Both the position numbers and the translations under genes were made by a program. A DNA stretch of 64,000 bases from positions 73,498 through 137,497 of the forward strand of contig JBFLVL010000006.1 of the NCBI GenBank assembly GCA_040758495.1. The letters run 5' to 3'. Each line of letters starts with the position of its first letter. The stretch's first letter is position 1. Source of the DNA: Chloroflexota bacterium. Its GTDB lineage: Bacteria > Chloroflexota > Anaerolineae > Anaerolineales > JBFLVL01. The notes beneath the pieces were generated by a model. That model did not search any database. It worked only from the letters and a program-made list of their open reading frames with translations, and had not been told where the DNA came from. Positions 28,419 to 46,943 of this stretch are shown in pieces.

Positions 28419-28447
28419 TTGACAGCCGGTCACGCCCCCACTACAAT
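28419..28447 (+). promoter_or_regulatory. Near-consensus sigma-70 promoter
   Basis: TTGACA (28419-28424), 17-nt spacer, TACAAT (28442-28447). It lies 31 nt upstream of a GAGGTG Shine-Dalgarno and ATG 28478. Confidence 0.55.
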
Positions 28448-28477
28448 TGCCCAAATCCTTCCCACATCGAGGTGAAC

Positions 28478-28957
28478 ATGCTCAAACATCGAAATTGGTG
28501 GTTGGTGGCGTTGCTTCTGGCAGCCGGGGGACTGTTGGTCTGGTTCCTGGATTTGTATTTCACCCAACCCCGCGTAGTCGTCACCTGGGAGACGGCCAGT
28601 GAACTTGAGACTGCCGGGTTCAACTTATACCGCAGCACAAGTCCCGAGGGGCCATTCACCCAGATCAACGAAAACCTCCTCTCCGCCCAGGGAGACCCGG
28701 TCATCGGTTCCCGCTACGTGTTTACCGATACGCAGGTGGTGGCTGGGGAGTGGTACTATTACGAATTGCAGGAAGTGGAATTGGACGGCAAGGCCTTCAG
28801 CCAGGGGATGGTCAGTGTGCGAGCCACCTCAGGGAGCATGATTACAACGGTTGTGTCCCTTTTACTTTTCATCGGATCGGTGCTGTGGTTGGTAGCTGGG
28901 TTGGTGGTACGACGTAAAGCAGGACGATCGGTTAAGGGGGAGCGTGAAAAAGCCTGA
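28478..28957 (+). CDS. Bitopic membrane protein with beta-sandwich-like 'WETASE..GFNLYR' domain (paralog 1)
   Basis: N-terminal TM, VVTWETASELETAGFNLYRS...GSRYVFTD...WYYYELQEV, then a C-terminal TM plus RRKAGR. ATG 28478 is preceded by GAGGTG. Confidence 0.7.
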   Translation: MLKHRNWWLVALLLAAGGLLVWFLDLYFTQPRVVVTWETASELETAGFNLYRSTSPEGPFTQINENLLSAQGDPVIGSRYVFTDTQVVAGEWYYYELQEVELDGKAFSQGMVSVRATSGSMITTVVSLLLFIGSVLWLVAGLVVRRKAGRSVKGEREKA

Positions 28958-29750
28958 GGCTGTAGACCTCCACCTGGGTCAATTAAGAGTGCAGGTACTG
29001 TCTTCGGATACCAGGCTGATAACGGGTTTAAACCGCCTCTGGCAGGGTTTCCTGGGCAAAGGCTCAGCCGATTGCAGGTTACAGGTGGAGCTGGTCGGAG
29101 AGCAGCGTTCCAGCCCCTGGTCAGACCAGGGGTTGACCTGGCGAGAGGGAAGCGCCTGTTTCACTGCCCTGGGGTACGAAGGCTGGATTGACCTCCGCCA
29201 GGGTGAGGGCCGCCTGCGGCTCTCCTCCCGTTTCCCACTGGAGGATGTGGATTATTTCGTGCGCGTGGCAGTCGCCATGTTGGCGTTTGATGCCGGAGGT
29301 GTGCTGTTTCACGCCGCGGGCATCCTCAGAGGGGAGGGGGTAGTGCTTTTCTATGGCCCCTCCGGCGCTGGGAAGACGACGGTGGCGCGCCACTCACCCG
29401 CGGGAAGTGTGTTGAACGATGACCTGGTGCTGATGTTGCCTGAGGGAAATGTGTGGATGGTTTTTGCCACCCCGTTCTGGAACCCAACCCAGGCACTCCC
29501 TGCTAGCCAACAGGCGCGGCTGCTGGCTCTTTTCCGTCTGGTTCAGGATTTGCGCGTGCTTGCCAGGCCTCTGACGGGGGCCTCGTCCTTAGCTGCATGG
29601 TTAGCGAGCGTGCCCGTACTGACCACCGACCCGACCCGCAACCATCAACTTCTTCAACTTGGCCAACGCTTGCTGGGCAGCGTACCTGCTTATGAGCTGC
29701 ATTTTCTTCCGGATAGCTCTTTCTGGGCAGTCGTAGATGAGCGGATATGA
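28944..29750 (+). CDS. HPr-kinase-C-terminal-domain-like P-loop kinase (HprK-related)
   Basis: LFHAAGILRGEGVVLFYGPSGAGKTTVA followed by NDDLVLM, matching the HprK/P C-domain pattern. GTG start overlaps the upstream gene by 14 nt. Confidence 0.6.
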   Translation: MKKPEAVDLHLGQLRVQVLSSDTRLITGLNRLWQGFLGKGSADCRLQVELVGEQRSSPWSDQGLTWREGSACFTALGYEGWIDLRQGEGRLRLSSRFPLEDVDYFVRVAVAMLAFDAGGVLFHAAGILRGEGVVLFYGPSGAGKTTVARHSPAGSVLNDDLVLMLPEGNVWMVFATPFWNPTQALPASQQARLLALFRLVQDLRVLARPLTGASSLAAWLASVPVLTTDPTRNHQLLQLGQRLLGSVPAYELHFLPDSSFWAVVDERI

Positions 29751-29753
29751 GAG

Positions 29754-30308
29754 ATGCCGAAGACAACACCCGGCTCACCTCCAGATGAAGAACTATTGAG
29801 GCAGATTGCTTCAGGTGATAGCTCGGCGCTGGAAACCTTGTACGAACGTCACAGCGTTCCGGTTTATAACTACCTGCTGCGACTGGTGGGTGAGGTGCCT
29901 GCCGCGGAAGACCTGTTACAGGAGGTATTTATCGCCGTGTGGCGAGGGGCGGGCAGCTATCGCCAGCTTTCCAGCGTGAAAACCTGGGTGTTAAGCATTG
30001 CCCATCATCGTGCGGTATCCTGGTTGCGACGTCGTCGTAAGTTCAGCCTGTTTGAGGATGTACACATATTGGACAGCCGTCCCGGGCCGGAGCTACAAGC
30101 TTTCAGCGGGTGGGAAGTAGAGCAGCTTCAGCAGGCCTTGGAGGGATTGTCGGTTAACCATCGGGCGGTAATTGAGTTGACCTTTGTCCATGGGTTATCG
30201 TATAGGGAGATTGCTCAGGTAATGGGTTGTCCGGAGGGCACGGTCAAGAGTCGCATGAGTTACGCCCTGCGTCAGTTGACCGGGCTGCTCAAAGGGAAGG
30301 GGGTATAG
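29754..30308 (+). CDS. ECF (group 4) sigma-70 factor
   Basis: Region 2 (DLLQEVFIAVWRG) and region 4 (LSYREIAQVMGCPEGTVKSRMSYA). Confidence 0.9.
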   Translation: MPKTTPGSPPDEELLRQIASGDSSALETLYERHSVPVYNYLLRLVGEVPAAEDLLQEVFIAVWRGAGSYRQLSSVKTWVLSIAHHRAVSWLRRRRKFSLFEDVHILDSRPGPELQAFSGWEVEQLQQALEGLSVNHRAVIELTFVHGLSYREIAQVMGCPEGTVKSRMSYALRQLTGLLKGKGV

Positions 30309-32402: not shown

Positions 32403-32404
32403 CA

Positions 32405-33130: not shown

Positions 33131-33799
33131 ATGTCACCTCCCTCATCCCCACAAGAATACATACCCTGGTACCTGAACGACAGCCTGGAGCCGGAAGGAC
33201 GACAGGCTGTTGAGACATGTCTGGAGGGGGCAACACAAGCTCAGGTGGAATTTGTCCGACAGATACAAACTTCCCTAAAATTGTTACCCCAAACCGCTCC
33301 CGCGCCCTATGTGCGTGAGCGGTTGCTGGCGCGTGTGGCCCAACCTCAACCACGCTGGCGATTTGCCTGGGCCTGGACGGGGCTGCTGAGCGTCCTGCTG
33401 ATGGTCCTGGTATGGATGGTGCTCAAGCCGGGCGTAGTGCTGCGTTGGGCGGTCTCGCCAGGGGAAGTGGCAGCCTTTCGGGTGTATCGTGCACCCGCGG
33501 ATGATGGGGAGTTCACGCTGGTGCAGGAAGTGACCGCCTCACCAGAAGAGCGCGAGTATCGAGTGATTGACTGGCGACTGCTGCCCGGTTTGGCCTACGT
33601 CTACCTGATAGAAGCAGTGACACCGGAGGGAGGTAGAGCCTTCCAACAGGTGGTTACTGCCGATACCTGGGGCGCCTTGCCCGGGCAGTTGCTGGTGGTA
33701 GTCATCAGCATGTTGATGGCTTACATCCTGGTAAAATATGCACAATACGTATCCATACCGGTGATATGGAAAGGAGGAGGTGTAGAAGGATATATTTAA
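33131..33799 (+). CDS. Anti-sigma-factor-like membrane protein carrying the shared beta-sandwich-like domain (paralog 2)
   Basis: The N-terminal cytoplasmic segment resembles anti-sigma N-domains (YIPWYLNDSLEPEGRQAVETCLE). It is followed by a TM, then VLRWAVSPGEVAAFRVYRA...YRVIDW...YVYLIEAV and a C-terminal TM. Confidence 0.55.
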   Translation: MSPPSSPQEYIPWYLNDSLEPEGRQAVETCLEGATQAQVEFVRQIQTSLKLLPQTAPAPYVRERLLARVAQPQPRWRFAWAWTGLLSVLLMVLVWMVLKPGVVLRWAVSPGEVAAFRVYRAPADDGEFTLVQEVTASPEEREYRVIDWRLLPGLAYVYLIEAVTPEGGRAFQQVVTADTWGALPGQLLVVVISMLMAYILVKYAQYVSIPVIWKGGGVEGYI

Positions 33800-33848: not shown

Positions 33849-35963
33849 ATGAAATATCTAAGATATGCATTAATCGTTGTGCTACTGGTGGCCTTAGCTA
33901 CCGCTGGTGTTGCTTTAGCCGCAGTAGATACCTTCACCAGTACGCCAACCTCAGCGCCACAAACCACGGAAACTGATTGGACGCTTGAATATTCTTTCAC
34001 ATGGCCTGGTGCGGGTACAGATATTGCATTTTGTCTGTACTATGAAGAAGGTGAGACATGGAATGCGAGATTTGTCGCTATCACAGAAGCTTCAGCAACT
34101 GGCGATAATTACACAGCTGTAAATAGTGATCTATGTCCCACCTTAGCTGGGTATGACAGTATTTACTACTATGTCGTTGACTCAGCAAACTTTCAAGCAA
34201 CTGAGACTGAAAGGATCACCTGGGATAATGTAACTGTTCCCGCGGGTGCTACTGTTGGTGTACATGACTTTTTTGCCAGGGTATATACAGGTAGTGATTG
34301 TTCTAACGCAGTGGCTGGTGATGGAGCAGATGATCCCGGAGGTGCTACTTGTGGCACTACGCAAGGTGGCGGAAAGTTTCACCAATTCACGGTTGAATCT
34401 GACCCCGCAACCATTTACGTTTCTGATTCGGGTACCTGCGGTGGTTACGGTGACGTTGGGCAGGACTGTTACCAGTCGTTGGATACAGCACTCAGTAAAG
34501 CCAATACCTTCGGCTCAACTACAATCCGGGTTGTTGGAGATCTGACACTGGACAATAATGGATCGGATCTATCTGGTGCGGGAAGTCTGAGTGCGTTTAA
34601 CGGACTAAGCACCCCTCGGCTCATTTCACCGGGTACCTGCACTGGAACTGCCGTTGGTGATGGAACTTTTTATATGCTGGATGTAGATAGGGCGGTGACG
34701 GTAAGTGACATCACATTCGTAGGTACAGCCTGTAACACAGCCAGTGTCATCGGAGTACGCCTGAGTGATGCCAGTGCTACGATCAATAATGTTACTGTCC
34801 AAAACTTTGATGCAACCAGCCAAATTGGTGTAAAAATCACTGTAGCTGGAACACTCTCGAATAGCACTATACAGAGTAACACGACAGGAGTTGTAAGTGC
34901 GGGTAGTACGATCTCGGGTAACACAATTAGCAGCAACTCTGGTGTTGGGCTTTCTATTACCGGAGGTACTCCCACTGTTTCAGGCAACACCATCTCCAGC
35001 AATGGCGGTGACGGCATCAACTCAGATCAAACCGGTGGTACCTTTCAGGATAACGATGTTACCAGCAACACTGGAGATGGGATCCAAGTACCTGCCGGTT
35101 TTGCTGGGACTATCCTAGAGAACCATATAACCGGTAGTGGCGGTTACGGTGTTAATTTTGGTGGAGCTCCGAACGCCGCTATCGTACTGAAATATAATAA
35201 CATCTACAGCAACACCACTGGTCAATTGGTAAATGGTAGTTCTGTCGCTGTTGGTGGAAACTACCTGGGTGATAACGCCACATCTGGTACGTATGGTGGG
35301 TTTGACGGTGCTATCGTTGGTTCGCCATTTACCCGTACGACTCCGGGCATTAGCACTGCTAATATTTACACACAGGATAACCTGGCAGATGGGAATGACT
35401 GCTCTGATCCATCATCCCATTACACAACTGTTGGTCCTATCCAGCTATGCAATAACACAGGTGACAACACGCTTGATTTCGTTATCGTTGACCTGGGCAC
35501 CGATACACCCTTTGGTATAGGAACAGACCCAGATCAGGGTCAACAATGCTCCAACTACTACGATGTGTATGTTGATCATGGTACAGCGAATACTGGTCAG
35601 GTATGGGTTATGATCCCAGTGAAAGCGGGACTCTGTCAGAGTACATATGTGCCTGCCAACTGCTCGGACGTGCCGCATGCCTACATCAACTCCGGTATGA
35701 GCCGCTGGTCACAAACCGAGAGCTGGTCTTGCGTACCGAACGCTACCAGCCCAACAAAGGTAACAGGTTATAGACCTGCCAGCACTCTCGGCGACACAGG
35801 TTTTGTAGTTTTGGGCGACAACGCCCCCACGGCCATCACCCTGCTTGGTCTGAGTGCCAAGAGCCAGCCCGCAGCTAACCCCATCGCCCTGGCGGTTGCT
35901 GGTCTGCTGCTCGTCGTGCTCCTCGGCCTCGGCGTCCGTCAGGTGGTCCGTCGTCGCATCTAA
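33849..35963 (+). CDS. Secreted parallel beta-helix repeat protein with C-terminal TM + RRRI tail
   Basis: Signal peptide, then PbH1-type repeats (ISGNTISSNSGVGLSI / VSGNTISSNGGDGIN / DNDVTSNTGDGIQV / ENHITGSGGYGVNF). The C-terminus is AITLLGLSAKS...ALAVAGLLLVVLLGLGVRQVVRRRI. A strong SD (aaggag) precedes the start. Confidence 0.75.
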   Translation: MKYLRYALIVVLLVALATAGVALAAVDTFTSTPTSAPQTTETDWTLEYSFTWPGAGTDIAFCLYYEEGETWNARFVAITEASATGDNYTAVNSDLCPTLAGYDSIYYYVVDSANFQATETERITWDNVTVPAGATVGVHDFFARVYTGSDCSNAVAGDGADDPGGATCGTTQGGGKFHQFTVESDPATIYVSDSGTCGGYGDVGQDCYQSLDTALSKANTFGSTTIRVVGDLTLDNNGSDLSGAGSLSAFNGLSTPRLISPGTCTGTAVGDGTFYMLDVDRAVTVSDITFVGTACNTASVIGVRLSDASATINNVTVQNFDATSQIGVKITVAGTLSNSTIQSNTTGVVSAGSTISGNTISSNSGVGLSITGGTPTVSGNTISSNGGDGINSDQTGGTFQDNDVTSNTGDGIQVPAGFAGTILENHITGSGGYGVNFGGAPNAAIVLKYNNIYSNTTGQLVNGSSVAVGGNYLGDNATSGTYGGFDGAIVGSPFTRTTPGISTANIYTQDNLADGNDCSDPSSHYTTVGPIQLCNNTGDNTLDFVIVDLGTDTPFGIGTDPDQGQQCSNYYDVYVDHGTANTGQVWVMIPVKAGLCQSTYVPANCSDVPHAYINSGMSRWSQTESWSCVPNATSPTKVTGYRPASTLGDTGFVVLGDNAPTAITLLGLSAKSQPAANPIALAVAGLLLVVLLGLGVRQVVRRRI

Positions 35964-36125: not shown

Positions 36126-36299
36126 ATGGCCATGATAGAAACAAAACCCCAAACTAAAAAACAGGAGGAGTTGCTGCGGAAAGCCTATGAGAAGCCGCAG
36201 GTAAAGCTCACTCTACCTCTGGAAACCCGGGCTGGTTCACCCCTAGGTGTTAATCCCTTTGACCCCTTCAACATGGGGCCGGATCCTAACCAGCAATAG
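36126..36299 (+). CDS. Free-standing 57-aa peptide, precursor-like (not on the ORF track because under 60 aa)
   Basis: ATG 36126 is preceded by AGGAGAG. The translation is MAMIETKPQTKKQEELLRKAYEKPQVKLTLPLETRAGSPLGVNPFDPFNMGPDPNQQ. It has its own promoter candidate and its own terminator. Confidence 0.55.
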   Translation: MAMIETKPQTKKQEELLRKAYEKPQVKLTLPLETRAGSPLGVNPFDPFNMGPDPNQQ

Positions 36300-40200: not shown

Positions 40201-40453
40201 TGAGCAGGTCATGGGGCCGGTGACTTTGTTGGCGAAATTGGACCTCTATGCTACGGGACAGGATTTGGATTTGATCCAAACCTTCACCATTTTTGGTGAC
40301 CCTGCGCTTCACATTCAGGTGCCCAGCAGCCTGGAACCAACACCTACTCCGACACCAACCTTCACTAATACACCCACACCTACTTTTACTCATACCCCAA
40401 CCCCAACCCCGACTCCTTCTAAGATATTCATACCTATAGTGGTTCATCGTTAA
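37295..40453 (+). CDS. Secreted peptidase C25 (gingipain/PorU family) homolog with Thr/Pro-rich C-terminal tail
   Basis: Signal peptide and a GKPQLP propeptide-like motif. The catalytic region reads DYIFITHADF..LLVGSGHWNF..HIGRLPV..NYVGHGSIQRW..LSMTCLDAYW (His/Cys dyad context). The C-terminus is TPTPTPTFTNTPTPTFTHTPTPTPTPS. An alternative ATG at 37304 lies just downstream of a TATAAT at 37290-37295. Confidence 0.8.
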   Translation: MIPMDSSLTTKNILRWFVVVSLLIATPWTGWILAQGQSEDQTPNVHIVRSNDEGILVEYLMPNPEVFTEAVQSGVGGRLVIPGMSLYQQPGKPQLPIQSVLLGIPPSGEVSLNVIQAEGVILPGTYDVPPSPQPASMEEDLQPAGWLIGGEGYVGLQTFPQSPASITDEAWLRSQRLIRLELFPFQYNPSQKTLVWYPRLLVEIRFSSQARKAAQSAASGCLFARCFEAASFESVLQSALLNYDQAKTWRIPPYQNPQLSAPAPVFADFAPSNSGEKYKIVVDTDGLYTVTYADLVAAGMNVGSVNPQNFQMTNQGRGVAIYVSGEGDGSFDPSDGIYFYGEQFRGDYLASLYASEGEDWLYLFNGGRKSDFNATMLEKYTQDNVYWLTVGSTSGLRMTTVSGDPTGSLASTPQTFTETIHAEQQIVWWTFHFTSEDTWFWDHINDITAPVTRNYSFTLTNVATGAYNATIRAEVVPRNHNPDSSPDHHTKFYIQNTSQLIDDAYWDGKDRYSFQSVIPQSQLVEGNNILILWAEKTAGMTSDRLYFDWFEVEYQRLYQAQSDELTFGGDTAGTWKYQVPGFTSADIRVFDITNPLLPTQFTSPEIVGASGTFTVTFEATHGAGAEFIAAGSSGVHPPKQITRYVPPNFAGLPEADYIFITHADFAATLQTLANFRAGQGMSTLIVDVADLYNEFNYGIYHPIAIKNFLAYTFANWLSPPEYVLLVGSGHWNFHGSPNYGNPAIYMPPYLAFLDLSQGEVDSANQLAMLVGDDILPDVHIGRLPVNNTTELNTVINKIIAYEGAPEASWQTYFTFVADNTPDSAGDFVAMSESAISKLPPGANVDRIYSNDYANDAAQVRTAIANSLNITGTLVLNYVGHGSIQRWAHEEIFRNADVATLTNINQLPVVLSMTCLDAYWIYPNQQSLINEMLFYTNGGAVTTFSPTGLGVATGHDVLHAGFYDAVFHDNEQVMGPVTLLAKLDLYATGQDLDLIQTFTIFGDPALHIQVPSSLEPTPTPTPTFTNTPTPTFTHTPTPTPTPSKIFIPIVVHR

Positions 40454-40910: not shown

Positions 40911-41462
40911 ATGGCTAGTAGCTGGAATGAACCGTTGCGCCCAGGCAAAGAGGGGCTGATCGCCTTCAAGGTCAAGGGTGACAGCATGGTTCCTATCCTG
41001 CACCCTGGGGATATCGTTCATGTAGACCCTGGGCCAGGGATATCCTATCGTGTGGGAGATGTGGTGCTCATATTCCGTAAGGAGGAGCTGATCACGCACC
41101 GCTTGCTTTATAAAGTTGTAGAAGGCTGGTACACCAAGGGGGACAATCGTCTGGACCTCGACCCTGTGGTTAATGAACAATCTATGATTGGTAAGGTGGT
41201 CGTTTTGGAGAAGGCCGGGAAAAGGATTGACCTTCAAAAGCCCTTTTGGCGAAGTGCCAATCGGGTAATGGGAAGTCTGCATTGGCTTTTCGTTTTATGC
41301 TTTGATAAAATTCGGTTGTTTGCGTCTTGGAGCAGACTCAACCGTTATCCCTTGTTTAAGCGTTGCGGAAGGAAAACTATGCTCATTATCCAGAAAGCCA
41401 TCTCCGTCACGATACTTTTTAGTGGAAGGGTGTTGGCGATTTTTGATCGGAGGGGAGGATGA
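40911..41462 (+). CDS. S26B (SipW/Sec11/archaeal-type) signal-peptidase-like serine peptidase
   Basis: Boxes KGDSMVPIL, GDIVHV, LITHRLL (His rather than Lys) and YTKGDNRLDLDP. It has no N-terminal TM; a hydrophobic segment sits near the C-terminus. Confidence 0.65.
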   Translation: MASSWNEPLRPGKEGLIAFKVKGDSMVPILHPGDIVHVDPGPGISYRVGDVVLIFRKEELITHRLLYKVVEGWYTKGDNRLDLDPVVNEQSMIGKVVVLEKAGKRIDLQKPFWRSANRVMGSLHWLFVLCFDKIRLFASWSRLNRYPLFKRCGRKTMLIIQKAISVTILFSGRVLAIFDRRGG

Positions 41463-41758
41463 GGTTGACTTTGGAATCGCGCCCTCTTTGCCATCCCGAG
41501 GTGGTCGGTCGGGTCGTGGAGGACGAAGCGGTCATCGTCCTGCCGGAAAAGGGGCAGGTCAAGGTGCTGAACGCGGTAGGAGCGCGCATCTGGTCTCTGC
41601 TGGATGGCTCCCGCAGGGTGAGGGAGGTCGTTGAGGAGTTGTGTAATGAGTACGACGTCACGCACGCGGAAATGGAGTCCGATGCTCTGGCTTTTTTAAC
41701 GGAGTTATTAGAGGAGGGGGCAATCGTATTGTCTTCGGAAGAGATTCCAGAGAGTTGA
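41459..41758 (+). CDS. PqqD-family protein (RiPP recognition element-like)
   Basis: VVEDEAVIVLPEKGQVKVLNAVGARIWSLLDGSRRVREVVEELCNEYDV...DALAFLTELLEEGAIV. ATGA overlap with the peptidase gene. Confidence 0.8.
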   Translation: MRLTLESRPLCHPEVVGRVVEDEAVIVLPEKGQVKVLNAVGARIWSLLDGSRRVREVVEELCNEYDVTHAEMESDALAFLTELLEEGAIVLSSEEIPES

Positions 41759-41785
41759 TCCTTGTCCCATAAAAAAGTATTTTCT

Positions 41786-42610
41786 ATGAAGGTCAGGTAT
41801 CTGATTGGGACAATTGTCATTTTCACCCTGGCGGGTTTAGGCCTTGTCGTTTTTACCCGTGTGGGAAGCGCGGCTGTTACCCTGGTCAGTTTTACGGCTA
41901 CACCTGGTGACAGTAAGGTGACGCTGGATTGGGAAACGGCCTCGGAGATTGATTTCGCCGGCTTTTTTGTCCAGCGCAGTACCCAGGAAGATGGCACCTA
42001 TGCTCGCATCAGCCCCTTCATCCCTGCGGAGGGGGATAGCATTGTGGGGGCAAGGTACAGTTTTGTGGACACGAATGCGGTCAATGGCAGCACCTATTAC
42101 TACAAGCTGGAGGCCATTAATAACGACCAGACGTACGAACTGCACGGCCCCGTTTCGGCTACCCCTGGCAGCTCAATAACCACCACTCCCACGGCCACCC
42201 GCACACCCACCCCAACGACTTCGGGCACGGTATCTCCCAGCCCCACACCCACGCGCACACGGACCCCAACGCGGACCCCTACCCGTGGTACCCCTACCAA
42301 GACTCCAACAGGCACGATTTCCCCCACCGCAACCGACACCCCCTCAGCCACCCCCTCTCCGGAATTCACGGCAACACCGACCGTGACTCCTACCTTTACG
42401 CCCTTTGTAATCTCACTGCCGACTCTGGCCCTGCCCTCAAGGACTCCCACGCCAACGGAAACTCCCCTTCCCCCAAGTGAGGAGGTAGGGGGAGGCCAGG
42501 GATTGCCTATAGGTTTTCGCCTGGGGTTGCTTGCCTTGGGGATTAGCGTGGTGGGCGGAGGGTTGTTCGCTGCGGCGATATATTTCTTTTATAGACGAGG
42601 TGGCTGGTGA
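41786..42610 (+). CDS. Membrane-anchored protein with the shared beta-sandwich-like domain (paralog 3), Thr/Pro-rich linker and C-terminal TM
   Basis: TLVSFTATPGDSKVTLDWETASEIDFAGFFVQRS...GARYSFVDT...YYYKLEAI, then about 100 aa of TPTPT-type linker, then TM + YRRGGW. Confidence 0.75.
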   Translation: MKVRYLIGTIVIFTLAGLGLVVFTRVGSAAVTLVSFTATPGDSKVTLDWETASEIDFAGFFVQRSTQEDGTYARISPFIPAEGDSIVGARYSFVDTNAVNGSTYYYKLEAINNDQTYELHGPVSATPGSSITTTPTATRTPTPTTSGTVSPSPTPTRTRTPTRTPTRGTPTKTPTGTISPTATDTPSATPSPEFTATPTVTPTFTPFVISLPTLALPSRTPTPTETPLPPSEEVGGGQGLPIGFRLGLLALGISVVGGGLFAAAIYFFYRRGGW

Positions 42611-44763
42611 TAGACCGCCTGAATATATTCATTCGGGGGAGAGTCTCTGCACGGCTTTTGGGCATACTGGCTGTCAGTTCCCTGATTTCTGCTTACCTGA
42701 ATGGTTGTTCGCCTTCTGGGAACGTGGTCGGGTCTGACCTGCCTCCCAGTGAGGGAGTGAAGTTAATGATTCCCACCACCGGAATCTACGAAGTCTCCTC
42801 CCAAGCGTTGCGCGCGGTTTGGGGAAAACAAATTGAGCCGGGCACCTTGCAGCTTACGTACGAGGGAGGTCCACAACCCATCTGGCTGGTGAGGGATGGT
42901 AGTGAGTGGCGCCTCCGTTTTTACGCCCAGGCTACGGATAGCGAGTACACTGCAGATAATGTGTATTGGTTATCCGAAGGTGAAACCCCTTGGTTGTTGA
43001 TCAATGAGGTGCCTCATGGGGTAGGGGAGGCGGGCTCCGAGCTGATCCACCAATACACGGCTACTATCCATCAGGAAGAGAATCTGCGTTTTCTGCCCAA
43101 GGTTGAGAGCGGGGATCACTGGTTGTGGCTGGCGATGACCGCACCTCAGGGGGAGACTTTCACCCTGAAACTGGACGCGCTGGCTCCTGGTGGAGGGTAT
43201 CTGCGCGTGGGGCTATGGGGAAGTACGGAGGCGGAGGACAGTGAGGCTGATCATCATCTCCGCGCCAGCCTTAACGGTCAGTTGGTCGCCGAGGCCCGTT
43301 GGGATGGTGTGGGACGCTATGTCCTAGAGGGTGAGGTACCCCCAGGGTTGTTGCGTGAGGGCGAAAACGAAATCAGCCTGGAGGCACCCGGCGATACCGG
43401 CGTGCTTGTAGATACGGTCGTCCTGGATTGGATCGAATTGGATTACCCCCGCTTTCTTGTGCCTGGAGAGGGCCAGCTCAGCTTTGAGGGTTTTGATGGG
43501 ATGATTGGGTTGGTAGGTTTTCCGGAGGGCGTGGATGTTTTCGAGCGTCTTCCGACGGGTGAGATGAACCATTTCACATCGCTTTATCAAAGTGGTGATT
43601 CGTTCTACTTCATGGGACACTCTGGACGGCATTACACTGTTGTGCCCAATGGAGCTTATTTGCAGCCCAGCGCAATGCATCCTGCCTCCTTACTCCCTGA
43701 CCTGCGTGCCTTAGAAGGAGCCGATTATCTGGTCATCGCTCCCCAGGATTTTCTACCCTATGTGGAACCTCTCCTCGAATACCGGCGTCAGCAGGGGTTA
43801 GCGGCTCTGTCCATTCCCGTGGAAGCGGTGTACGACCAGTTCAACTTCGGCTTGCCAGAGCCCCAAGCCATCCAGGCTTTCCTTCGTTACGCCGCAGCTC
43901 AGTGGAATCCCAGCCCTCGCTATCTTTTACTTGTTGGGGATACCACCTACGATGTCCATGGCTATCAGGTATCTACTGATTGGAATAGGATGCCTACTTT
44001 TTGGATGGATACCATCTTTGGAGGTGTGACTGCCTCTGACATATTCTACGCCCTCGTAGATGACGACCCCCGACCGGATATTGCGGTTGGTCGCTTTCCC
44101 GTTCAAACAACTGAGCAGTTGCAGCGTATGATAGCCAAGACCCTGGCTTACGAACAAGATCCCCCACAAGGTGAATGGCAGAGTCTCGTCCTTGGCGTTG
44201 CGGATGGGGATGCTCCGTCCTTTGAAGGCGATGCCCAAGCCTTTTTGGCTCATTTTTCATCCCCTTACAAGACAAGGCTCTTCGTGCCCGAAGCAGGGGA
44301 GCAGGGGGTTAATCAAAAAGTGATAGAGTTTATTAATAAGGGCGTCTTTCTGATCGCCTATTTTGGTCACGGCAGTGTAACCCAGTGGGGCAAAGGTGGT
44401 ATTTTTTACGCCCAGGATGTAGGGCAGCTTGCCAACAGTCATCTGCCCATCATCGTGAACATGACCTGTTTGACAGGATTATTTACCCATCCGCAGGTAG
44501 ATTCGCTGGCTGAGACCTTATTATGGAAAGCGGACGGCGGGGCGGTTGCGGTGCTGGCCCCTACCAGCTTAACGTTACCCCAGGACCAGAATGTGCTCAG
44601 CGATGCGCTGGCTCAGGCCTGGCTAGCGGATGCACCCTCCAGGTTGGGGGAGATACTTCTGCATGCCTGGAACCAGGTTCCCCTGGAGGACGAGACTGTG
44701 AGAGAAGTACTGTATACCTTCCTGCTGTTTGGTGATCCAGCTCTGGTAATACCAGCGCCTTAA
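42607..44763 (+). CDS. Peptidase C25 (gingipain/PorU family) homolog, probable lipoprotein
   Basis: LISAYLNGC lipobox-like signal. The catalytic region reads DYLVIAPQDF..LLLVGDTTYDVHG..AVGRFPV..AYFGHGSVTQW..VNMTCLTGLF. GTGA overlap with the upstream gene. Confidence 0.8.
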   Translation: MIDRLNIFIRGRVSARLLGILAVSSLISAYLNGCSPSGNVVGSDLPPSEGVKLMIPTTGIYEVSSQALRAVWGKQIEPGTLQLTYEGGPQPIWLVRDGSEWRLRFYAQATDSEYTADNVYWLSEGETPWLLINEVPHGVGEAGSELIHQYTATIHQEENLRFLPKVESGDHWLWLAMTAPQGETFTLKLDALAPGGGYLRVGLWGSTEAEDSEADHHLRASLNGQLVAEARWDGVGRYVLEGEVPPGLLREGENEISLEAPGDTGVLVDTVVLDWIELDYPRFLVPGEGQLSFEGFDGMIGLVGFPEGVDVFERLPTGEMNHFTSLYQSGDSFYFMGHSGRHYTVVPNGAYLQPSAMHPASLLPDLRALEGADYLVIAPQDFLPYVEPLLEYRRQQGLAALSIPVEAVYDQFNFGLPEPQAIQAFLRYAAAQWNPSPRYLLLVGDTTYDVHGYQVSTDWNRMPTFWMDTIFGGVTASDIFYALVDDDPRPDIAVGRFPVQTTEQLQRMIAKTLAYEQDPPQGEWQSLVLGVADGDAPSFEGDAQAFLAHFSSPYKTRLFVPEAGEQGVNQKVIEFINKGVFLIAYFGHGSVTQWGKGGIFYAQDVGQLANSHLPIIVNMTCLTGLFTHPQVDSLAETLLWKADGGAVAVLAPTSLTLPQDQNVLSDALAQAWLADAPSRLGEILLHAWNQVPLEDETVREVLYTFLLFGDPALVIPAP

Positions 44764-44798
44764 AAAAGATGCGACGTACTCCTGAAGTACGCCGCATC
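44762..44798 (-). terminator. Rho-independent terminator read on the minus strand (serves the convergent ABC gene; hairpin may act bidirectionally)
   Basis: The plus strand reads aaaaaa-gatgcgacgtact-cctga-agtacgccgcatc. On the minus strand the hairpin is followed by T6. Confidence 0.6.
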
Positions 44799-44828
44799 TA
44801 CACCAGCTATATTGTGATAATCAGACAG

Positions 44829-45043
44829 GGTAACTGCTCAGGCATCCCTCGCACCGGATTGATCCTTCGGCTAGCTCACCTGTGCCTGCGGCACTGGCGC
44901 AGGCAGGACAAGAATCCAGGGCTGACAGACAAAATCTGTTCAAACGGGTTGACAGCTCAGTGCATTTTTTAGTCGGATTTCATCCGACTTTGGTTCTCAG
45001 CCTGAGAATTCATTCTCAGGCGTATGCAGGCTGAGCAGTTACC
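44829..45043 (+). mobile_element. MITE (215 bp) with 13-bp terminal inverted repeats and 6-bp target-site duplication
   Basis: TIRs are ggtaactgctcag (44829-44841) and ctgagcagttacc (45031-45043). They are flanked by direct agacag (44823-44828 and 45044-45049). Internal hairpins are agtcggatttcatccgact and cctgagaattcattctcagg. Confidence 0.85.
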
Positions 45044-45050
45044 AGACAGT

Positions 45051-46943
45051 TTAGTAGTGGGTCAGGCTGCCCTCGACTTTGGCTCGTTGAACAGCCATCC
45101 GGAAGACGATCAGGCTAAGCGGAACGCCTGCAAAACAGAATATCGTCAAAGCCATCAGGTCAATCCAGACCTCCTGGAAGGAGGCGCCCTGTAAGAGCAC
45201 CTTACGCATGGCTTCCAGCGCGTAGGTGATGGGGAAGAGCTTAGCGATGGTCTGCAACCATGAGGGGAGGATGGTCAATGGGAAGTAAACTCCACCGAGT
45301 AGTCCTGCAAACGCATTGAACACCCAGGTGATGGGGTCTCCGCGTTTGAGCACCATGATGAAACTGGCGGCTATTATTCCCAGGCTGCTGAATGCCCCAA
45401 TGGTCAGAAGCAGAATGAGAAAAGCCAGAGGGTAATTGCCGCGATTTATGGGGATGGGAGAAAGTAGCACCCCAACGGCCAGGTATACGACAAATCGTAA
45501 GGTGGTCAACAGGTAACTCCACAAGGACGAAGACAGGATGATCGTGGTGACTGGTGTGGGAGTGGTCAGCATGGCTTCCAGCGTGCCGGTAGTTTGAGCC
45601 TGCCGCAAGCTGTTGGCAAAACCGGAGAGGCCAACCCCAAAGTAGCCCGCAATGGCGATGCCGATAAGCACAAAGGCGAAGTAATCTCCACCGTAGGGTT
45701 CAAGGTAGGGGAGGGCTGTGGGGCCGATGAGCTTAGATATGAAGTAGAACACAGCCACTGAGAACAGGATGTTCAGAAAGGATAAGAAGAAAGCCACGCG
45801 GTAGCTGATCTCAGAGCGGACATCACGTTTCAGGAAAGCCCATGCTACTCGCAACCCATGTTTAACCCTTGCCACCATTTGGTGAAAGACAGGTTGTGTT
45901 TGTTGAGACAAGTGTGTAGTGGAAGGGGGAAGGGATACGGGTGCGGGAGGCGACTTGGTAGAGGCTCCTGACGGTTTCTCCACCAGTTGTTTAAAGATGG
46001 TTTCCAGGGTTACCGGCCTTCGCTGGTAGGAGATGATTTTTGCACCCAGTTGGTTGATGTGTGAAAGTGCGAGAGAGGCTGTCTGCTCGTCTGGGAGGGT
46101 TATCCTGGTCTCATCGTCATCCTGTTTGTGGGTTTGTAGTGAGAACCGCTTGCTTAATGTATTGTGCATAGCCTTTGTCAACCCTCCCACACATAGAAAG
46201 ATATCTTCTGAGAGGCCTGATTGTTGGCGAAGTTCATCTAAAGAACCACAAGCCAGTATCTCTCCTTGGTGCATTATAGCGATGCGGTTGCACAGCTTTT
46301 CAGCCTCGGTAAGCCGGTGGGTGGTCAGGAATACAGTTATCCCTTCCTTTTCTACCAGTTGACTCCGGATAAGGGTATGAAGCCGCTCTGTGGCAATGGG
46401 GTCGAGGTCATTGGTGGGTTCATCCAGGTATAACAGGCTGGGGTTGTTGAGTAAAGCTCGGGCGATTCCTAAACGTTTGCGCATCCCGTTGGAGTAAACC
46501 TGGACAGGCTTGTGGGCTGCTTCTGTCAATCCTACCTGTTCTAATGCCCAGGCAATCCTTTTGTCTTTTTCCTCGCCGAACAATCCAAACATGGTAGAAA
46601 AGAAATCCAGGTTTTGGCTTCCGGTTAAGCGCCAGTAAAAGCTGCGTTCGTCCCCGGTACTTAACCCTACAACGCTTTTGATAAATTGTTGTTGGTTCAG
46701 GTCGTATCCTTTGATGTGCGCAGTACCTGAACAGGGGGTGATCAACGTGCACAAGAGCTTGATTAACGTCGTTTTACCCGCGCCATTGGGGCCCACCAAC
46801 CCAAACAGCTCCCCATCTTTTACGCGCAGGTTTACATCCTTGACCACGAGTTGAGGTGCATCGCGGTGAGAATGTAAAGGCAACAGGCTAAGGGTTTGAG
46901 GGAAATATTTACTTAGATGAAAGGTTTCAATGGCCCAATCCAA
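45051..46943 (-). CDS. Fused ABC transporter: N-terminal ATPase + C-terminal ABC-2 permease
   Basis: Walker A GPNGAGKTT, signature YSNGMRKRL, Walker B LLYLDEPTNDLD. A linker follows, then 6 TM segments of ABC-2 type (RDVRSEISYRVAFFLSF...). Confidence 0.85.
   Translation of the reverse strand: MDWAIETFHLSKYFPQTLSLLPLHSHRDAPQLVVKDVNLRVKDGELFGLVGPNGAGKTTLIKLLCTLITPCSGTAHIKGYDLNQQQFIKSVVGLSTGDERSFYWRLTGSQNLDFFSTMFGLFGEEKDKRIAWALEQVGLTEAAHKPVQVYSNGMRKRLGIARALLNNPSLLYLDEPTNDLDPIATERLHTLIRSQLVEKEGITVFLTTHRLTEAEKLCNRIAIMHQGEILACGSLDELRQQSGLSEDIFLCVGGLTKAMHNTLSKRFSLQTHKQDDDETRITLPDEQTASLALSHINQLGAKIISYQRRPVTLETIFKQLVEKPSGASTKSPPAPVSLPPSTTHLSQQTQPVFHQMVARVKHGLRVAWAFLKRDVRSEISYRVAFFLSFLNILFSVAVFYFISKLIGPTALPYLEPYGGDYFAFVLIGIAIAGYFGVGLSGFANSLRQAQTTGTLEAMLTTPTPVTTIILSSSLWSYLLTTLRFVVYLAVGVLLSPIPINRGNYPLAFLILLLTIGAFSSLGIIAASFIMVLKRGDPITWVFNAFAGLLGGVYFPLTILPSWLQTIAKLFPITYALEAMRKVLLQGASFQEVWIDLMALTIFCFAGVPLSLIVFRMAVQRAKVEGSLTHY

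What the first reader, a model, noticed from the sequence alone, without database searches (positions are those of the whole stretch)
28419..46943. Candidate undescribed envelope maturation system: HprK-like kinase, ECF sigma/anti-sigma, S26B peptidase, PqqD/RRE, two C25 peptidases, shared-domain anchor proteins and a small peptide
If the TA cassettes and repeat clusters are ignored, twelve genes form three tightly coupled groups.

(i) The consensus promoter at 28419-28447 is followed by the TM/beta-sandwich protein (28478-28957). Next comes the HprK-C-like P-loop kinase (28944-29750, 14-nt overlap), then the ECF sigma (29754-30308).

(ii) The anti-sigma protein carrying the same extracytoplasmic domain (33131-33799) is followed by the 704-aa beta-helix protein with TM+RRRI tail, the free-standing 57-aa peptide gene, and the 1052-aa C25 homolog.

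(iii) The SipW/Sec11-type S26B peptidase is followed by PqqD (ATGA overlap), the beta-sandwich/TP-linker anchored protein, and the lipoprotein-type C25 homolog (GTGA overlap). A fused NBD-ABC-2 exporter lies convergent to this group.

PqqD-type RREs and HprK-like kinases are known from RiPP loci, for example phosphorylated lasso peptides. Here there is no lasso cyclase, B2 protease, radical-SAM or YcaO enzyme. The only candidate processing enzymes are a signal-peptidase-like protease and two clan-CD C25 enzymes. That family contains PorU, the sortase-like transpeptidase of type IX secretion.

I know of no described system with this combination. The working hypothesis is that an RRE guides, and a kinase modulates, cleavage or transpeptidation of the small peptide or of the TM-plus-basic-tail proteins. 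The product would be attached to the polysaccharide made by the flanking genes, under ECF control.
Basis: partly seen in the sequence, partly recalled or inferred. Interest (0 to 1): 0.85.

Follow-up and report, generated by a model that had tools for sequence, protein, structure and literature searches.

The report
Peptide-maturation genes coupled to PorU-like peptidases
This Chloroflexota region carries a conserved, uncharacterised gene system that joins the machinery for maturing a small ribosomal peptide to two cell-surface cysteine peptidases related to the PorU sortase, a combination for which I found no description.

Summary
All twelve genes exist at the stated coordinates, and profile searches support every family assignment. 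The juxtaposition is not chance. In about 50 Chloroflexota loci with enough flank, the short C25 gene is accompanied by a long C25 (43), an Fn3-like anchor (44), PqqD (33), an S24/S26B peptidase (32) and a ScmC/HprK-like kinase (27). Several gene orders occur. Four of five kinase-anchored look-ups found the same set. The window equals the compact loci L013, L022 and L095 plus inserted VapBC and HEPN/MNT cassettes and REP-like repeats.

The 57-aa ORF is a real, conserved precursor peptide. Three clades share a lasso-type YxxPx[LIV] leader motif and an invariant small residue nine positions after a conserved His. One clade has two Cys and a neighbouring radical SAM/SPASM enzyme.

The S26B-like peptidase has no N-terminal membrane anchor, so it is probably cytoplasmic. 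Both C25 enzymes keep the catalytic His and Cys, and the short one models as PorU-like.

Most likely the peptide is matured in the cytoplasm in RiPP fashion, exported, and then used by the surface C25 pair. The proposed link to flanking polysaccharide genes is not conserved. The chemistry is untested. I rate it a new variant of known kinds, with high interest.

The parts
28419..28447 (+). Sigma-70-like promoter candidate (TTGACA-17-TACAAT), 30 nt upstream of the first gene
   Evidence: 11 of 12 matches, the best site in 28000-47500. The overall number of sites is not above shuffles, so this is only a candidate.
28478..28957 (+). TM1: small bitopic membrane protein (N-terminal TM, Fn3-like extracytoplasmic domain, C-terminal TM plus basic tail), translationally coupled to the kinase
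   Evidence: 23 homologues with conserved W..T.SE..T.GFN.YR and YYY.LE motifs; weak Fn3-like PDB match. No Pfam or NCBIfam family. Found upstream of the kinase in 23 of 50 loci.
28944..29750 (+). ScmC-family P-loop kinase-like protein of the PEPCK/HprK fold
   Evidence: precomputed PF27840 ScmC; NCBI names it hypothetical protein AB1345_04580. HprK_rel_B E 2e-5 and ScmC E 1.6e-3, both far below cut-off; invariant H123, G138-S-G-x-G-K-T146 and D159-D160. AF2 pLDDT 94.7; Foldseek best hit ATP-PEPCK E 1.7e-8; HprK/P 1knx E 3.6e-5.
29754..30308 (+). ECF sigma factor
   Evidence: Sigma70_r2 E 6.7e-17, r4_2 E 5.4e-16, TIGR02937 at 111 bits against a 42.9 cut-off. It directly precedes the anti-sigma gene in L013, L022 and L095.
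33131..33799 (+). Anti-sigma factor: cytoplasmic N-terminus, TM, the same Fn3-like domain outside, second TM
   Evidence: NF052375 anti-sigma E 8e-7, below cut-off; 8 homologues; hhalign against the TM1 family gives probability 98.3%, E 1.8e-14. In this genome it is separated from the sigma gene by VapBC, HEPN/MNT and repeats.
33849..35963 (+). Accessory 704-aa secreted right-handed beta-helix protein with C-terminal TM plus RRRI
   Evidence: Beta_helix E 5.8e-18, NosD E 5.9e-10. A homologue sits at the same position (sigma ... peptide) only in L090.
36126..36299 (+). Precursor peptide gene (57 aa): leader ...YEKPQVKLTLPLETRA-G, core SPLGVNPFDPFNMGPDPNQQ (boundary inferred)
   Evidence: 31 unique homologues plus 3 more, in three clades. 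All have Y-x-x-P-x-[LIVF]. In the 23 sequences that keep the conserved His (the window's peptide has Leu at that position), G or A lies 9 residues after it. GGAG RBS. The gene lies immediately upstream of the long C25 gene in most loci.
36349..36384 (+). Strong intrinsic-terminator-like hairpin 50 nt after the peptide gene
   Evidence: 14-bp stem with 7 GC pairs and a T-run. This layout is typical of precursor-gene attenuation in peptide clusters (inference).
37295..40453 (+). Long C25 cysteine peptidase: signal peptide, gingipain-type propeptide, PorU-like middle, catalytic domain, TP linker, C-terminal ...IFIPIVVHR tag
   Evidence: Peptidase_C25 E 1.4e-83, Propeptide_C25 E 1.1e-23. T9SS_sortase PorU model 295 bits against a 420 cut-off; catalytic H877 and C911 invariant in 50 of 50. 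C-terminal [FYL]LP[LIV]xx[KR] motif.
40911..41462 (+). Sec11/SipW-type (S26B) Ser/His peptidase without an N-terminal membrane anchor; ATGA overlap with PqqD
   Evidence: Peptidase_S24 E 1.2e-7; sigpep_I_arch 40.8 bits against a 51.85 cut-off; homologue L068 reaches 54.8. S25 is nearly invariant; M26, H63, R64, G77-D78 and D84 are invariant; best PDB hit SEC11C, E 2.8e-12; no N-terminal hydrophobic segment in 43 and 141 homologues.
41459..41758 (+). PqqD-type RiPP recognition element (peptide chaperone)
   Evidence: PqqD E 7e-19; best NCBIfam hit lasso_PqqD_Bac E 7.8e-12, then ScmD E 6.8e-11, all below cut-offs. Present in 33 of 50 loci.
41762..42610 (+). Anchor protein: signal peptide, Fn3-like domain, long Thr/Pro linker, C-terminal TM plus basic tail
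   Evidence: 43% identity to TM1 over the domain, E 4e-20. Present in 44 of 50 loci directly upstream of the short C25. C-termini listed.
42607..44763 (+). Short C25 cysteine peptidase, lipoprotein-type, PorU-like architecture
   Evidence: Peptidase_C25 E 9e-81. PorU model 219.6 bits against a 420 cut-off. H588 and C621 invariant in 79 of 79; a lipobox-like Cys in many homologues. AF2 pLDDT 87.4; best PDB match PorU 6ZA2, E 2.4e-29 over 789 columns, ahead of the gingipains.
44767..44799 (.). Terminator-like hairpin between the convergent short C25 and ABC genes
   Evidence: 15-bp stem with 7 GC pairs, reported on the minus strand with a T-run.
45051..46943 (-). Fused NBD plus ABC-2 permease exporter, convergent
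   Evidence: ABC_tran E 1.6e-30, ABC2_membrane E 2.9e-16. A homologue, fused or split, sits in the same convergent position in 23 of 50 loci.

Best explanation
The region holds one conserved, uncharacterised Chloroflexota system. In this genome it is stretched by two inserted toxin-antitoxin cassettes and by REP-like repeats.

**Cytoplasmic half: a RiPP-type peptide maturation module.**
1. The 57-aa precursor carries a lasso-like YxxPx[LIV] leader motif. The PqqD recognition element binds it.
2. The ScmC/HprK/PEPCK-fold P-loop protein modifies the peptide. Most likely it phosphorylates the conserved Ser/Thr that follows the conserved Ala-Gly. Sister loci add a radical SAM/SPASM enzyme acting on two Cys.
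3. The anchor-less Sec11-type Ser/His peptidase, translationally coupled to PqqD, removes the leader next to Ala-Gly.
4. The convergent ABC-2 transporter exports the product.

**Extracytoplasmic half.**
- Two catalytically intact PorU-like C25 cysteine peptidases. One is secreted and has a gingipain-type propeptide and a short C-terminal hydrophobic-LP tag. The other is membrane-tethered as a lipoprotein.
- Membrane proteins that display a shared Fn3-like domain.
- The same domain is the sensor part of the anti-sigma factor, which gives optional ECF feedback.

I propose that the exported peptide is the substrate or co-substrate of the C25 pair at the cell surface, by trimming or by transpeptidation.

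**Shown:** gene content, family and fold assignments, catalytic-residue conservation, peptide conservation and co-conservation. **Inferred:** every biochemical step and the link between the peptide and the C25 enzymes.
For: **Co-conservation**
- About 50 Chloroflexota loci with at least 8 kb upstream of the short C25 carry long C25 (43), anchor (44), PqqD (33), S24 (32), kinase (27) and TM1 (23).
- The components stay together through at least three different gene orders: the window type, a kinase-PqqD-rSAM-peptide type, and a Caldilineae type with divergent kinase, peptide and PqqD.
- Reverse test: 4 of 5 kinase-anchored look-ups show peptide, long C25, S24 and PqqD downstream.
- L013, L022 and L095 have exactly the window's gene set in about 13 kb.

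**The peptide**
- 34 homologues fall in three clades with a shared Y-x-x-P-x-[LIVF] motif. In the 23 sequences that keep the conserved His (the window's own peptide has Leu there), H+8 is Ala in 17 and H+9 is Gly in 21 and Ala in 2.
- L065 has tandem copies. The window gene has an RBS and its own terminator.
- The peptide gene abuts the long C25 gene in many loci.
- The two-Cys clade sits next to a radical SAM/SPASM gene.

**Precedent**
- In lasso system bsf, YxxPxL spans positions -17 to -12. The HPr-kinase-like BsfK phosphorylates core Ser3, and the RRE BsfB1 accelerates this (PMC10368454).
- Here Ser or Thr occupies H+10 in 17 of 23 peptides.

**Enzymes**
- Peptidase: Sec11-like Ser/His motifs, nucleophile Ser replaced by Cys in one lineage, and no N-terminal anchor.
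- C25: His and Cys invariant in 50 of 50 and 79 of 79. Signal peptides or lipoboxes are present. The short C25 model best matches PorU 6ZA2.
Against: - No modification, cleavage or export has been observed. All steps are inferred from homology and synteny.
- S24 keeps its position next to the C25 and anchor genes even where PqqD has moved to the kinase. It also occurs alone with the short C25 in 4 of the 50 loci counted (and in L067, which lacks enough flank), without a detectable PqqD or peptide. This fits a C25-related role at least as well as leader removal.
- Some loci (L001, L048, L073, L082) have both C25 genes and the anchor but no kinase, PqqD or peptide. The C25 half can therefore work without the peptide.
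- L089 has TM1, kinase, sigma and anti-sigma without C25 within 10 kb.
- The residue before the conserved Gly is Leu in clade 3, so a simple signal-peptidase -3/-1 rule does not hold throughout.
- Clade 2 lacks a conserved Ser/Thr after Gly but has a conserved C-terminal Ser, so the acceptor site is not uniform.
- Kinase activity of ScmC-family proteins is unproven.
Confidence: 0.5

Rival explanations
1. Surface-protein sorting system. The lipoprotein C25 acts like the PorU sortase on secreted cargo that carries the short C-terminal [FYL]-L-P-[LIV]-x-x-[KR] tag: the long C25, M23 and S8 peptidases, and cohesin-like proteins. The Fn3-like anchor proteins hold or receive that cargo. The small peptide module is only a regulator or an accessory, not the product.
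For: - The tag is on 29 of 50 long C25 proteins and on other large secreted proteins in or beside the loci. It occurs in 44 of 1274 long ORFs against a 0.35% positional background.
- The short C25 is PorU-like in fold.
- The anchor plus short C25 pair is the most conserved unit.
- Loci exist with both C25 genes and the anchor but no peptide module (L001, L048, L073, L082).
- Dockerin-like C-termini on some long C25 paralogues sit beside cohesin-domain, tag-bearing neighbours.
Against: - The tag is missing from many long C25 proteins (L006, the Caldilineae type). It is only about 9 residues, unlike the roughly 80-residue T9SS C-terminal domain.
- A genome-wide census of the tag was not possible.
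- This model does not explain why a precursor peptide, RRE, kinase and radical SAM enzyme stay linked to the C25 genes through several rearrangements, nor why the peptide gene abuts the long C25 gene.
Confidence: 0.22
2. Dedicated signal-peptidase model, as for SipW. The S26B-type enzyme removes signal peptides from the adjacent C25 and anchor proteins. PqqD, the kinase and the peptide are an unrelated neighbouring cassette.
For: - The family profile's best PDB matches are the SEC11 catalytic subunits.
- Homologue L068 passes the archaeal-type signal peptidase I cut-off.
- S24 stays next to the anchor and short C25 in all architectures, and pairs alone with the short C25 in 4 of the 50 loci counted.
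Against: - None of 43 locus homologues and none of 141 database homologues has a hydrophobic segment before the catalytic Ser. The active site is therefore predicted to be on the cytoplasmic side, where signal peptides are not cleaved.
- The gene overlaps the cytoplasmic PqqD gene by ATGA in the window, and the two are adjacent in the window-type loci.
Confidence: 0.1
3. The processed peptide or TM-tail protein is attached to the polysaccharide made by the flanking genes, under ECF control.
For: - The window flanks do encode polysaccharide functions: GT2, BcsB-like, GT4, GHL15, Wzz/BY-kinase, DegT and a nucleotidyltransferase.
- PorU attaches its cargo to a glycolipid (established knowledge of T9SS).
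Against: - Homologues of the flanking genes are absent from almost all related loci: none for BcsB, GT4, GHL15, LysM or DegT; GT2 in 5 loci; Wzz/BY-kinase in 7.
- ECF sigma and anti-sigma are present in only 7 of 50 loci.
Confidence: 0.05
4. Chance juxtaposition of unrelated genes in one metagenome-assembled genome.
For: In the window the genes are broken into three groups by TA cassettes and repeats.
Against: The same gene set recurs compactly across Anaerolineae, Caldilineae, Ardenticatenaceae, Promineifilaceae, Thermoflexales, Chloroflexales and one Armatimonadota contig. This was found from two independent anchor proteins.
Confidence: 0.01

Closest known systems
Phosphorylated lasso peptide clusters (e.g. 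bsf of Bradymonas sediminis; HPr-kinase-like BsfK plus RRE BsfB1)
   Same: - A small precursor with a YxxPx[L/I/V] leader motif.
- A free-standing PqqD-type RRE whose best NCBIfam hit is the lasso PqqD model.
- An HprK/PEPCK-fold P-loop protein.
- In bsf, RRE-assisted phosphorylation of a Ser near the start of the core is documented (PMC10368454).
   Different: - No lasso cyclase and no B2 transglutaminase-type protease in the locus.
- The acidic residue in the core is not at a fixed position 7-9.
- The candidate leader peptidase is a Sec11-type Ser/His enzyme.
- Two C25 peptidases and Fn3-like anchor proteins are added.
SynChlorMet (SCM) cassette and related Haft-defined ScmC/PqqD/radical SAM-SPASM cassettes (also HPr-rel-A, GeoRSP)
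   Same: - The kinase belongs to Pfam PF27840 ScmC.
- PqqD hits ScmD, E 6.8e-11.
- Sister loci carry a radical SAM/SPASM enzyme that hits ScmE and ScmF, next to a two-Cys peptide.
   Different: - All NCBIfam equivalog scores are far below cut-off: ScmC 17.9 against 125, ScmD 42 against 100, ScmE/F about 90-99 against 400.
- The window clade has no radical SAM enzyme and no Cys.
- To my knowledge SCM cassettes are not associated with C25 peptidases, and their function is itself unknown.
PorU, the C25 sortase of type IX secretion, with gingipains as its C25 cargo
   Same: - Both C25 proteins align to the PorU model over about 600-740 residues.
- The short C25 model best matches the PorU crystal structure 6ZA2.
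- The pairing of a membrane-tethered C25 with a secreted, propeptide-bearing C25 recalls PorU and the gingipains.
   Different: - Scores are below the PorU cut-off (295 and 220 against 420).
- The hosts are Chloroflexota, where no T9SS is known.
- The cargo has no T9SS C-terminal domain, only a roughly 9-residue tag on some proteins.
- A cytoplasmic peptide-maturation module is attached.
SipW/Sec11 (S26B) signal peptidases, and the cytoplasmic S26 protease SodX of Ni-SOD maturation
   Same: - Ser/His dyad motifs SM.P, HR and GD...D.
- Best PDB hits are SEC11A/C.
- A weak hit to the Ni-SOD maturation protease, E 1.5e-4.
   Different: - There is no N-terminal signal anchor, unlike SipW and Sec11.
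- The gene is coupled to an RRE gene.
- The nucleophile is Cys in the Amarolinea lineage.

Membership tests
RRE-dependent RiPP biosynthetic cluster | Short precursor peptide gene with a conserved leader and a variable core | tested here: met
   34 homologues in three clades. The leader is conserved (Y-x-x-P-x-[LIVF], and in the 23 sequences that keep the His, H-x8-G/A) and the C-terminal part is variable. L065 has tandem copies.
RRE-dependent RiPP biosynthetic cluster | PqqD-like RiPP recognition element | tested here: met
   PF05402 at E 7e-19, 68.4 bits against a 23.4 cut-off.
RRE-dependent RiPP biosynthetic cluster | A core-modifying enzyme with demonstrated action on the peptide | not testable with these tools
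   The only candidates are the ScmC-family kinase-like protein in the window and radical SAM/SPASM enzymes in sister loci.
Lasso peptide cluster | Asn-synthetase-like lasso cyclase and transglutaminase-like B2 protease | tested here: not met
   No such Pfam or NCBIfam hits among the ORFs scanned between 28.4 and 47 kb.
Lasso peptide cluster | Core with Gly/Ala/Ser/Cys at position 1 and Asp/Glu at positions 7-9 | tested here: inconclusive
   The first acidic residue falls at position 7 to 11 depending on the homologue and the assumed cleavage site.
SynChlorMet cassette (ScmC, ScmD, ScmE, ScmF) | ScmC and ScmD equivalog scores at or above cut-off | tested here: not met
   TIGR04249 at 17.9 bits against 125, and TIGR04248 at 42.2 against 100. 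Pfam-level ScmC family membership is met.
SynChlorMet cassette (ScmC, ScmD, ScmE, ScmF) | Two radical SAM/SPASM maturases in the cassette | tested here: not met
   None in the window. Sister loci have one radical SAM/SPASM enzyme, scoring about 85-99 bits against a 400 cut-off.
HPr-rel-A system (TIGR04352 plus TIGR04353) | HprK-related kinase A and its PqqD partner above cut-off | tested here: not met
   HprK_rel_A is not hit by the window protein. PqqD_rel_X scores 21.6 bits against 35.
T9SS sortase PorU | NF033707 score at or above 420 bits | tested here: not met
   295.1 bits (long C25) and 219.6 bits (short C25). The fold-level best match is PorU 6ZA2.
T9SS sortase PorU | Cargo with the T9SS C-terminal sorting domain, and other T9SS components | tested here: not met
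   No Por_Secre_tail-type hit in any locus protein scanned. The rest of the genome could not be examined.
Peptidase family C25 (clan CD) | Catalytic His and Cys in the caspase-like domain | tested here: met
   GHGS and MTC motifs. His and Cys are invariant in 50 of 50 long and 79 of 79 short homologues.
S26B (Sec11/SipW/archaeal-type) signal peptidase I | Ser/His dyad motifs and profile similarity | tested here: met
   S25 is nearly invariant; H63-R64 and G77-D78 are invariant. SEC11C is hit at E 2.8e-12. TIGR02228 scores 40.8 bits against 51.85 for the window protein and 54.8 for L068.
S26B (Sec11/SipW/archaeal-type) signal peptidase I | N-terminal membrane anchor that places the active site on the trans side | tested here: not met
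   0 of 43 and 0 of 141 homologues have a hydrophobic segment before the catalytic Ser.
ECF sigma / anti-sigma pair | Sigma-70 regions 2 and 4 with an adjacent membrane anti-sigma | tested here: met
   TIGR02937 at 111 bits against 42.9. The anti-sigma is only a weak hit (E 8e-7), but it lies directly after the sigma gene in L013, L022 and L095.

The most novel reading that the evidence does not exclude
This would be a ribosomal-peptide pathway whose product is handled outside the cell by clan-CD, PorU-like transpeptidases. After leader removal the matured peptide exposes a small N-terminal residue. The C25 pair then either cyclises or trims it. Alternatively the pair uses it as the acceptor to fix tag-bearing secreted enzymes, or the Fn3-like anchor proteins, covalently at the Chloroflexota cell surface. 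That would amount to a counterpart of T9SS sortase chemistry outside Bacteroidota, with a ribosomal peptide in place of a glycolipid.
Probability: 0.2. Interest if true: 0.9.

Novelty: new variant of a known kind. Interest (0 to 1): 0.76.

Why it matters
- **RiPP biology.** RiPP machinery (RRE, HprK-like kinase, radical SAM) has so far been linked to soluble natural products. Here it is linked by synteny across Chloroflexota to PorU-like peptidases and membrane anchors. If the link is functional, ribosomal peptide maturation would play a part in building the cell envelope.
- **C25 and PorU enzymes.** PorU-type enzymes would gain a role outside type IX secretion.
- **ScmC-family proteins.** The finding gives a testable substrate for these proteins, whose function is unknown.
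- **S26B peptidases.** It defines an anchor-less, probably cytoplasmic subfamily with more than 200 clusters at 50% identity.
- **Chloroflexota surfaces.** It points to a candidate C-terminal sorting tag in abundant filamentous bacteria of sludge and sediments, whose surface biology is poorly known.

Tried and rejected
- **Exact look-up of the window PqqD.** Not on record.
- **Word-indexed homology search with S24.** It found only the protein itself. The later exhaustive phmmer search found 216 representatives at E below 1e-10.
- **Structure prediction with locus-derived alignment A5.** It was redone with alignment A8, built from database hits.
- **Lasso-peptide reading.** Rejected for membership: no cyclase, no B2 protease, and no fixed acidic ring position.
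- **SipW-like dedicated signal peptidase.** Judged unlikely because no homologue has an N-terminal anchor.
- **Polysaccharide linkage.** Rejected because the flanking genes are not conserved next to the system.
- **Beta-helix protein as a core component.** Rejected because it recurs only in L090.
- **Rfam scan of 28-48 kb.** No families found.
- **Literature searches.** PqqD+C25+Chloroflexi, RRE+HPr kinase+peptidase, C25+RiPP+gingipain, SynChlorMet, PorU+Chloroflexi+C25, and peptidase C25+precursor peptide+radical SAM gave nothing describing this system. One search (ScmC or PqqD) was swamped by unrelated acronyms.
- **Simple -3/-1 signal-peptidase rule for leader cleavage.** It holds in clades 1 and 2 but not in clade 3, where Leu precedes Gly.

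Full report
**1. Observation**

Profile searches support each assignment:
- Two Peptidase_C25 proteins (E 1.4e-83 and 9e-81). The long one also has the gingipain-type Propeptide_C25 domain.
- PqqD (E 7e-19).
- A Peptidase_S24 hit whose NCBIfam best match is archaeal-type signal peptidase I.
- An ECF sigma factor.
- A right-handed beta-helix protein.
- A fused ABC_tran plus ABC-2 exporter.

The P-loop protein hits HprK_rel_B and ScmC only weakly in my scans. The database's precomputed Pfam for this exact protein is PF27840 (ScmC), and NCBI calls it a hypothetical protein of a Chloroflexota MAG. An AlphaFold model built from 30 homologues (pLDDT 94.7) matches ATP-dependent PEP carboxykinases best (E 1.7e-8, TM about 0.6). 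It also matches HPr kinase/phosphatase (E 3.6e-5). The H...GxSGxGKT...DD motif is invariant.

The extracytoplasmic domain shared by the small TM protein, the anchor protein and the anti-sigma factor is real:
- 43% identity, E 4e-20.
- hhalign probability 98.3%.
- Weakly Fn3-like.
- In no Pfam or NCBIfam family.

The intervening material is VapB/VapC, HEPN/MNT and clusters of REP-like repeats with a period of about 125 nt.

**2. Is it a system?**

Homologues of the short C25 were traced to their contigs. A scan of one genome per species returned 80 loci. Almost all are Chloroflexota (Anaerolineae, Caldilineae, Ardenticatenaceae, Promineifilaceae, Thermoflexales, Chloroflexales), plus one Armatimonadota contig.

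I built HMMs for each window protein family and searched six-frame ORFs of all loci. Among about 50 loci with at least 8 kb upstream of the short C25, the counts are:

| Component | Loci |
|---|---|
| Long C25 | 43 |
| Fn3-like anchor | 44 |
| PqqD | 33 |
| S24/S26B peptidase | 32 |
| Kinase | 27 |
| TM1 | 23 |
| Convergent ABC-2 exporter | 23 |
| Sigma and anti-sigma | 7 |

L013, L022 and L095 have exactly the window's order in about 13 kb: TM1, kinase, sigma, anti-sigma, peptide, long C25, S24, PqqD, anchor, short C25, convergent ABC. The window is therefore that canonical locus plus insertions.

The components stay together through rearrangement:
- A second architecture runs TM1, kinase, PqqD, radical SAM/SPASM, peptide, long C25, S24, anchor, short C25.
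- A Caldilineae/Amarolinea architecture has kinase, peptide and PqqD divergent from the C25 genes.

Starting instead from kinase homologues, 4 of 5 look-ups show the peptide, long C25, S24 and PqqD downstream. Chance juxtaposition is excluded.

**3. The small peptide**

The 57-aa ORF has a GGAG ribosome-binding site and a strong terminator hairpin 50 nt downstream. Iterated HMM searches found 34 homologues in three clades:
- Clade 1, the window type: ...kpYxKPxIIHELxLETRAG[ST]P..., with a Pro/Asp-rich tail.
- Clade 2: ...YEKPAVIHRQvMEsIAGxC...DPVNGK...C...S. It has two Cys and a C-terminal Ser, and always sits next to a radical SAM/SPASM gene.
- Clade 3: ...TY[EQ]TPTLTKHQRLQKVTLGTV...WL[LM]PG[NQ].

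All share Y-x-x-P-x-[LIVF]. In the 23 sequences that keep a conserved His (the window's own peptide has Leu there):
- H+8 is Ala (17) or Leu (6).
- H+9 is Gly (21) or Ala (2).
- H+10 is Ser or Thr in 17.

YxxPxL is the RRE-binding motif of lasso leaders, spanning positions -17 to -12. In the bsf lasso system an HPr-kinase-like enzyme phosphorylates core Ser3, and the PqqD-type RRE accelerates this (PMC10368454). If the leader here ends at the conserved Gly, the Tyr, Pro and [LIV] fall at -17, -14 and -12 (read directly from the sequence). The peptide is thus a bona fide RRE-type precursor. The conserved Ser/Thr after Ala-Gly is the obvious candidate acceptor for the kinase-like protein.

**4. 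The peptidases**

*The S24 family.*
- The nucleophile Ser is nearly invariant, and the His-Arg and Gly-Asp motifs are invariant, as in Sec11/SipW-type (S26B) enzymes.
- Its best PDB matches are SEC11C and SEC11A (E about 1e-12).
- None of 43 locus homologues and none of 141 database homologues has a hydrophobic segment before the catalytic Ser. The exhaustive search found 216 representatives at E below 1e-10.
- I therefore predict a cytoplasmic or peripheral enzyme, not a classical signal peptidase.
- In the Amarolinea lineage the nucleophile is Cys (GECM), which argues that catalysis matters.
- In the window it overlaps PqqD by ATGA.

*The C25 families.*
- Both retain the catalytic His and Cys without exception, and both have signal peptides.
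- The short one usually has a lipobox Cys.
- Its model (pLDDT 87.4) matches the PorU crystal structure 6ZA2 best (E 2.4e-29 over 789 columns), ahead of the gingipain catalytic domains.

**5. An unexpected extra**

Of the 50 long C25 proteins, 29 end in a short motif [FYL]-L-P-[LIV]-x-x-[KR]-x0-2. The window's long C25 ends in ...SKIFIPIVVHR. The same ending is found on other large secreted proteins in or beside the loci:
- M23 peptidases.
- An S8 subtilase.
- Cohesin-domain proteins.
- A PMP-repeat protein.

It occurs in 44 of 1274 long ORFs, against 0.35% at random positions. It looks like a sorting or docking tag. Whether the short C25, the Fn3-like domain or something else reads it could not be tested.

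**6. Mechanism**

The best-supported reading is a two-compartment system.
- In the cytoplasm, PqqD presents the precursor to the ScmC-type kinase-like enzyme (and to radical SAM/SPASM in sister loci). The anchor-less S26B-like peptidase removes the leader next to Ala-Gly. The ABC-2 transporter exports the product.
- Outside, the two PorU-like C25 enzymes and the Fn3-like anchors act on or with this peptide.
- The anti-sigma factor senses the same process through the same Fn3-like domain.

Gene content, folds, catalytic residues and linkage are shown. Every reaction is inferred.

Counter-evidence:
- S24 stays with the anchor and short C25 even when PqqD moves. It also pairs alone with the short C25 in 4 of the 50 loci counted.
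- Some loci have the C25 half without any peptide module.
- L089 has TM1, kinase, sigma and anti-sigma without C25 nearby.

The main rival is therefore a protein-sorting system in which the peptide module is accessory.

**7. Comparison and novelty**

The cytoplasmic half works like phosphorylated-lasso and ScmC/PqqD/radical SAM cassettes. It fails their membership tests: no cyclase or B2 protease, and all equivalog scores far below cut-off. The outer half resembles PorU with gingipains but is below the PorU cut-off, and no T9SS cargo C-terminal domain was found in the locus proteins scanned. No NCBIfam equivalog names the kinase, PqqD, C25 genes, peptide, TM1 or anchor, and six literature searches found nothing.

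I file it as a new variant of known kinds, an RRE-dependent peptide cassette fused to PorU-like peptidases. There is about a one-in-five chance that it represents genuinely new chemistry: a ribosomal peptide processed or ligated by clan-CD transpeptidases at the cell surface.

Noticed in passing
window 40420-40453 (C-terminus of the long C25); also L019:17465-22036(-), L033:4242-8075, L059:15746-19054(-), L064:478-3681(-), L090:4440-8360(-): A short extreme C-terminal motif [FYL]-L-P-[LIV]-x-x-[KR]-x0-2 is shared by 29 of 50 long C25 proteins and by neighbouring large secreted proteins (M23, S8, cohesin-like, PMP-repeat). It is about ten-fold enriched over positional background. It may be a Chloroflexota sorting or docking tag.
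   Followed up: partly
window 31250-31590, 32390-32990, 36600-37260, 40554-40830, 44926-45021, 47033-47655: Clusters of REP/MITE-like intergenic repeats with a unit of about 113-130 nt and a conserved core ...CTCGACCCGCG...GGTCGAGT. They fill every enlarged intergenic gap of the locus. A 96-nt element containing a hairpin occurs at 36601-36696 and 44926-45021.
   Followed up: partly
window 30593-31205 and 31697-32402: VapB/VapC and HEPN/MNT toxin-antitoxin pairs lie between the ECF sigma gene and its anti-sigma gene. These two genes are adjacent in L013, L022 and L095.
   Followed up: yes
L040:8164-8727, L049:8182-8742, L050:7322-7882, L052:2609-3166, L061:7127-7687: In the Ca. Amarolinea-related lineage the S26B-like peptidase has Cys in place of the nucleophile Ser (GECM instead of G[DSN]SM).
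   Followed up: no
L036:1424-2506, L046:1948-3015, L051:3247-4317, L055:3040-4101, L065:3416-4495, L068:3515-4648, L071:2902-4008; L008:2077-3741: Sister loci carry a radical SAM/SPASM enzyme between PqqD and a two-Cys peptide with a C-terminal Ser. L008 carries a B12-binding radical SAM enzyme. L065 has two tandem peptide genes (4485-4649 and 4685-4834).
   Followed up: partly
L033:992-4273, L035:1103-4351, L042:908-4303, L040:850-4014, L085:3864-6908: Extra long C25 paralogues end in dockerin-like repeats (...DxDxDGxITVVDI...). In L033, L035 and L042 they are followed by genes that include a cohesin-domain protein carrying the LP tag. This suggests cohesin-dockerin style surface assembly.
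   Followed up: no
L003:1-2615, L006:1-3839, L090:879-9350, L093:1-7030: Extended synteny lies upstream of the TM1 and kinase genes in several loci: a large M23 peptidase (Big_7/PPC domains), a response regulator with an HD_5 domain, and a GT2 glycosyltransferase, all on the opposite strand.
   Followed up: no
L094:8832-10010: In one locus an NTP_transf_5 nucleotidyltransferase and an Rce1-like CPBP protease directly precede the kinase. As I recall it, nucleotidyltransferases accompany HprK-like kinases and PqqD in the HPr-rel-A cassette.
   Followed up: no
window 1-6000: GC content is 58-65% in the first 6 kb, against about 48-57% in the rest of the window.
   Followed up: no
window 20538-28289 and 47818-52720: The flanks encode polysaccharide functions (GT2, APH-like kinase, BcsB-like, GT4, GHL15; LysM protein, Wzz/BY-kinase, DegT aminotransferase, nucleotidyltransferase). 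These are not conserved next to the system elsewhere.
   Followed up: yes
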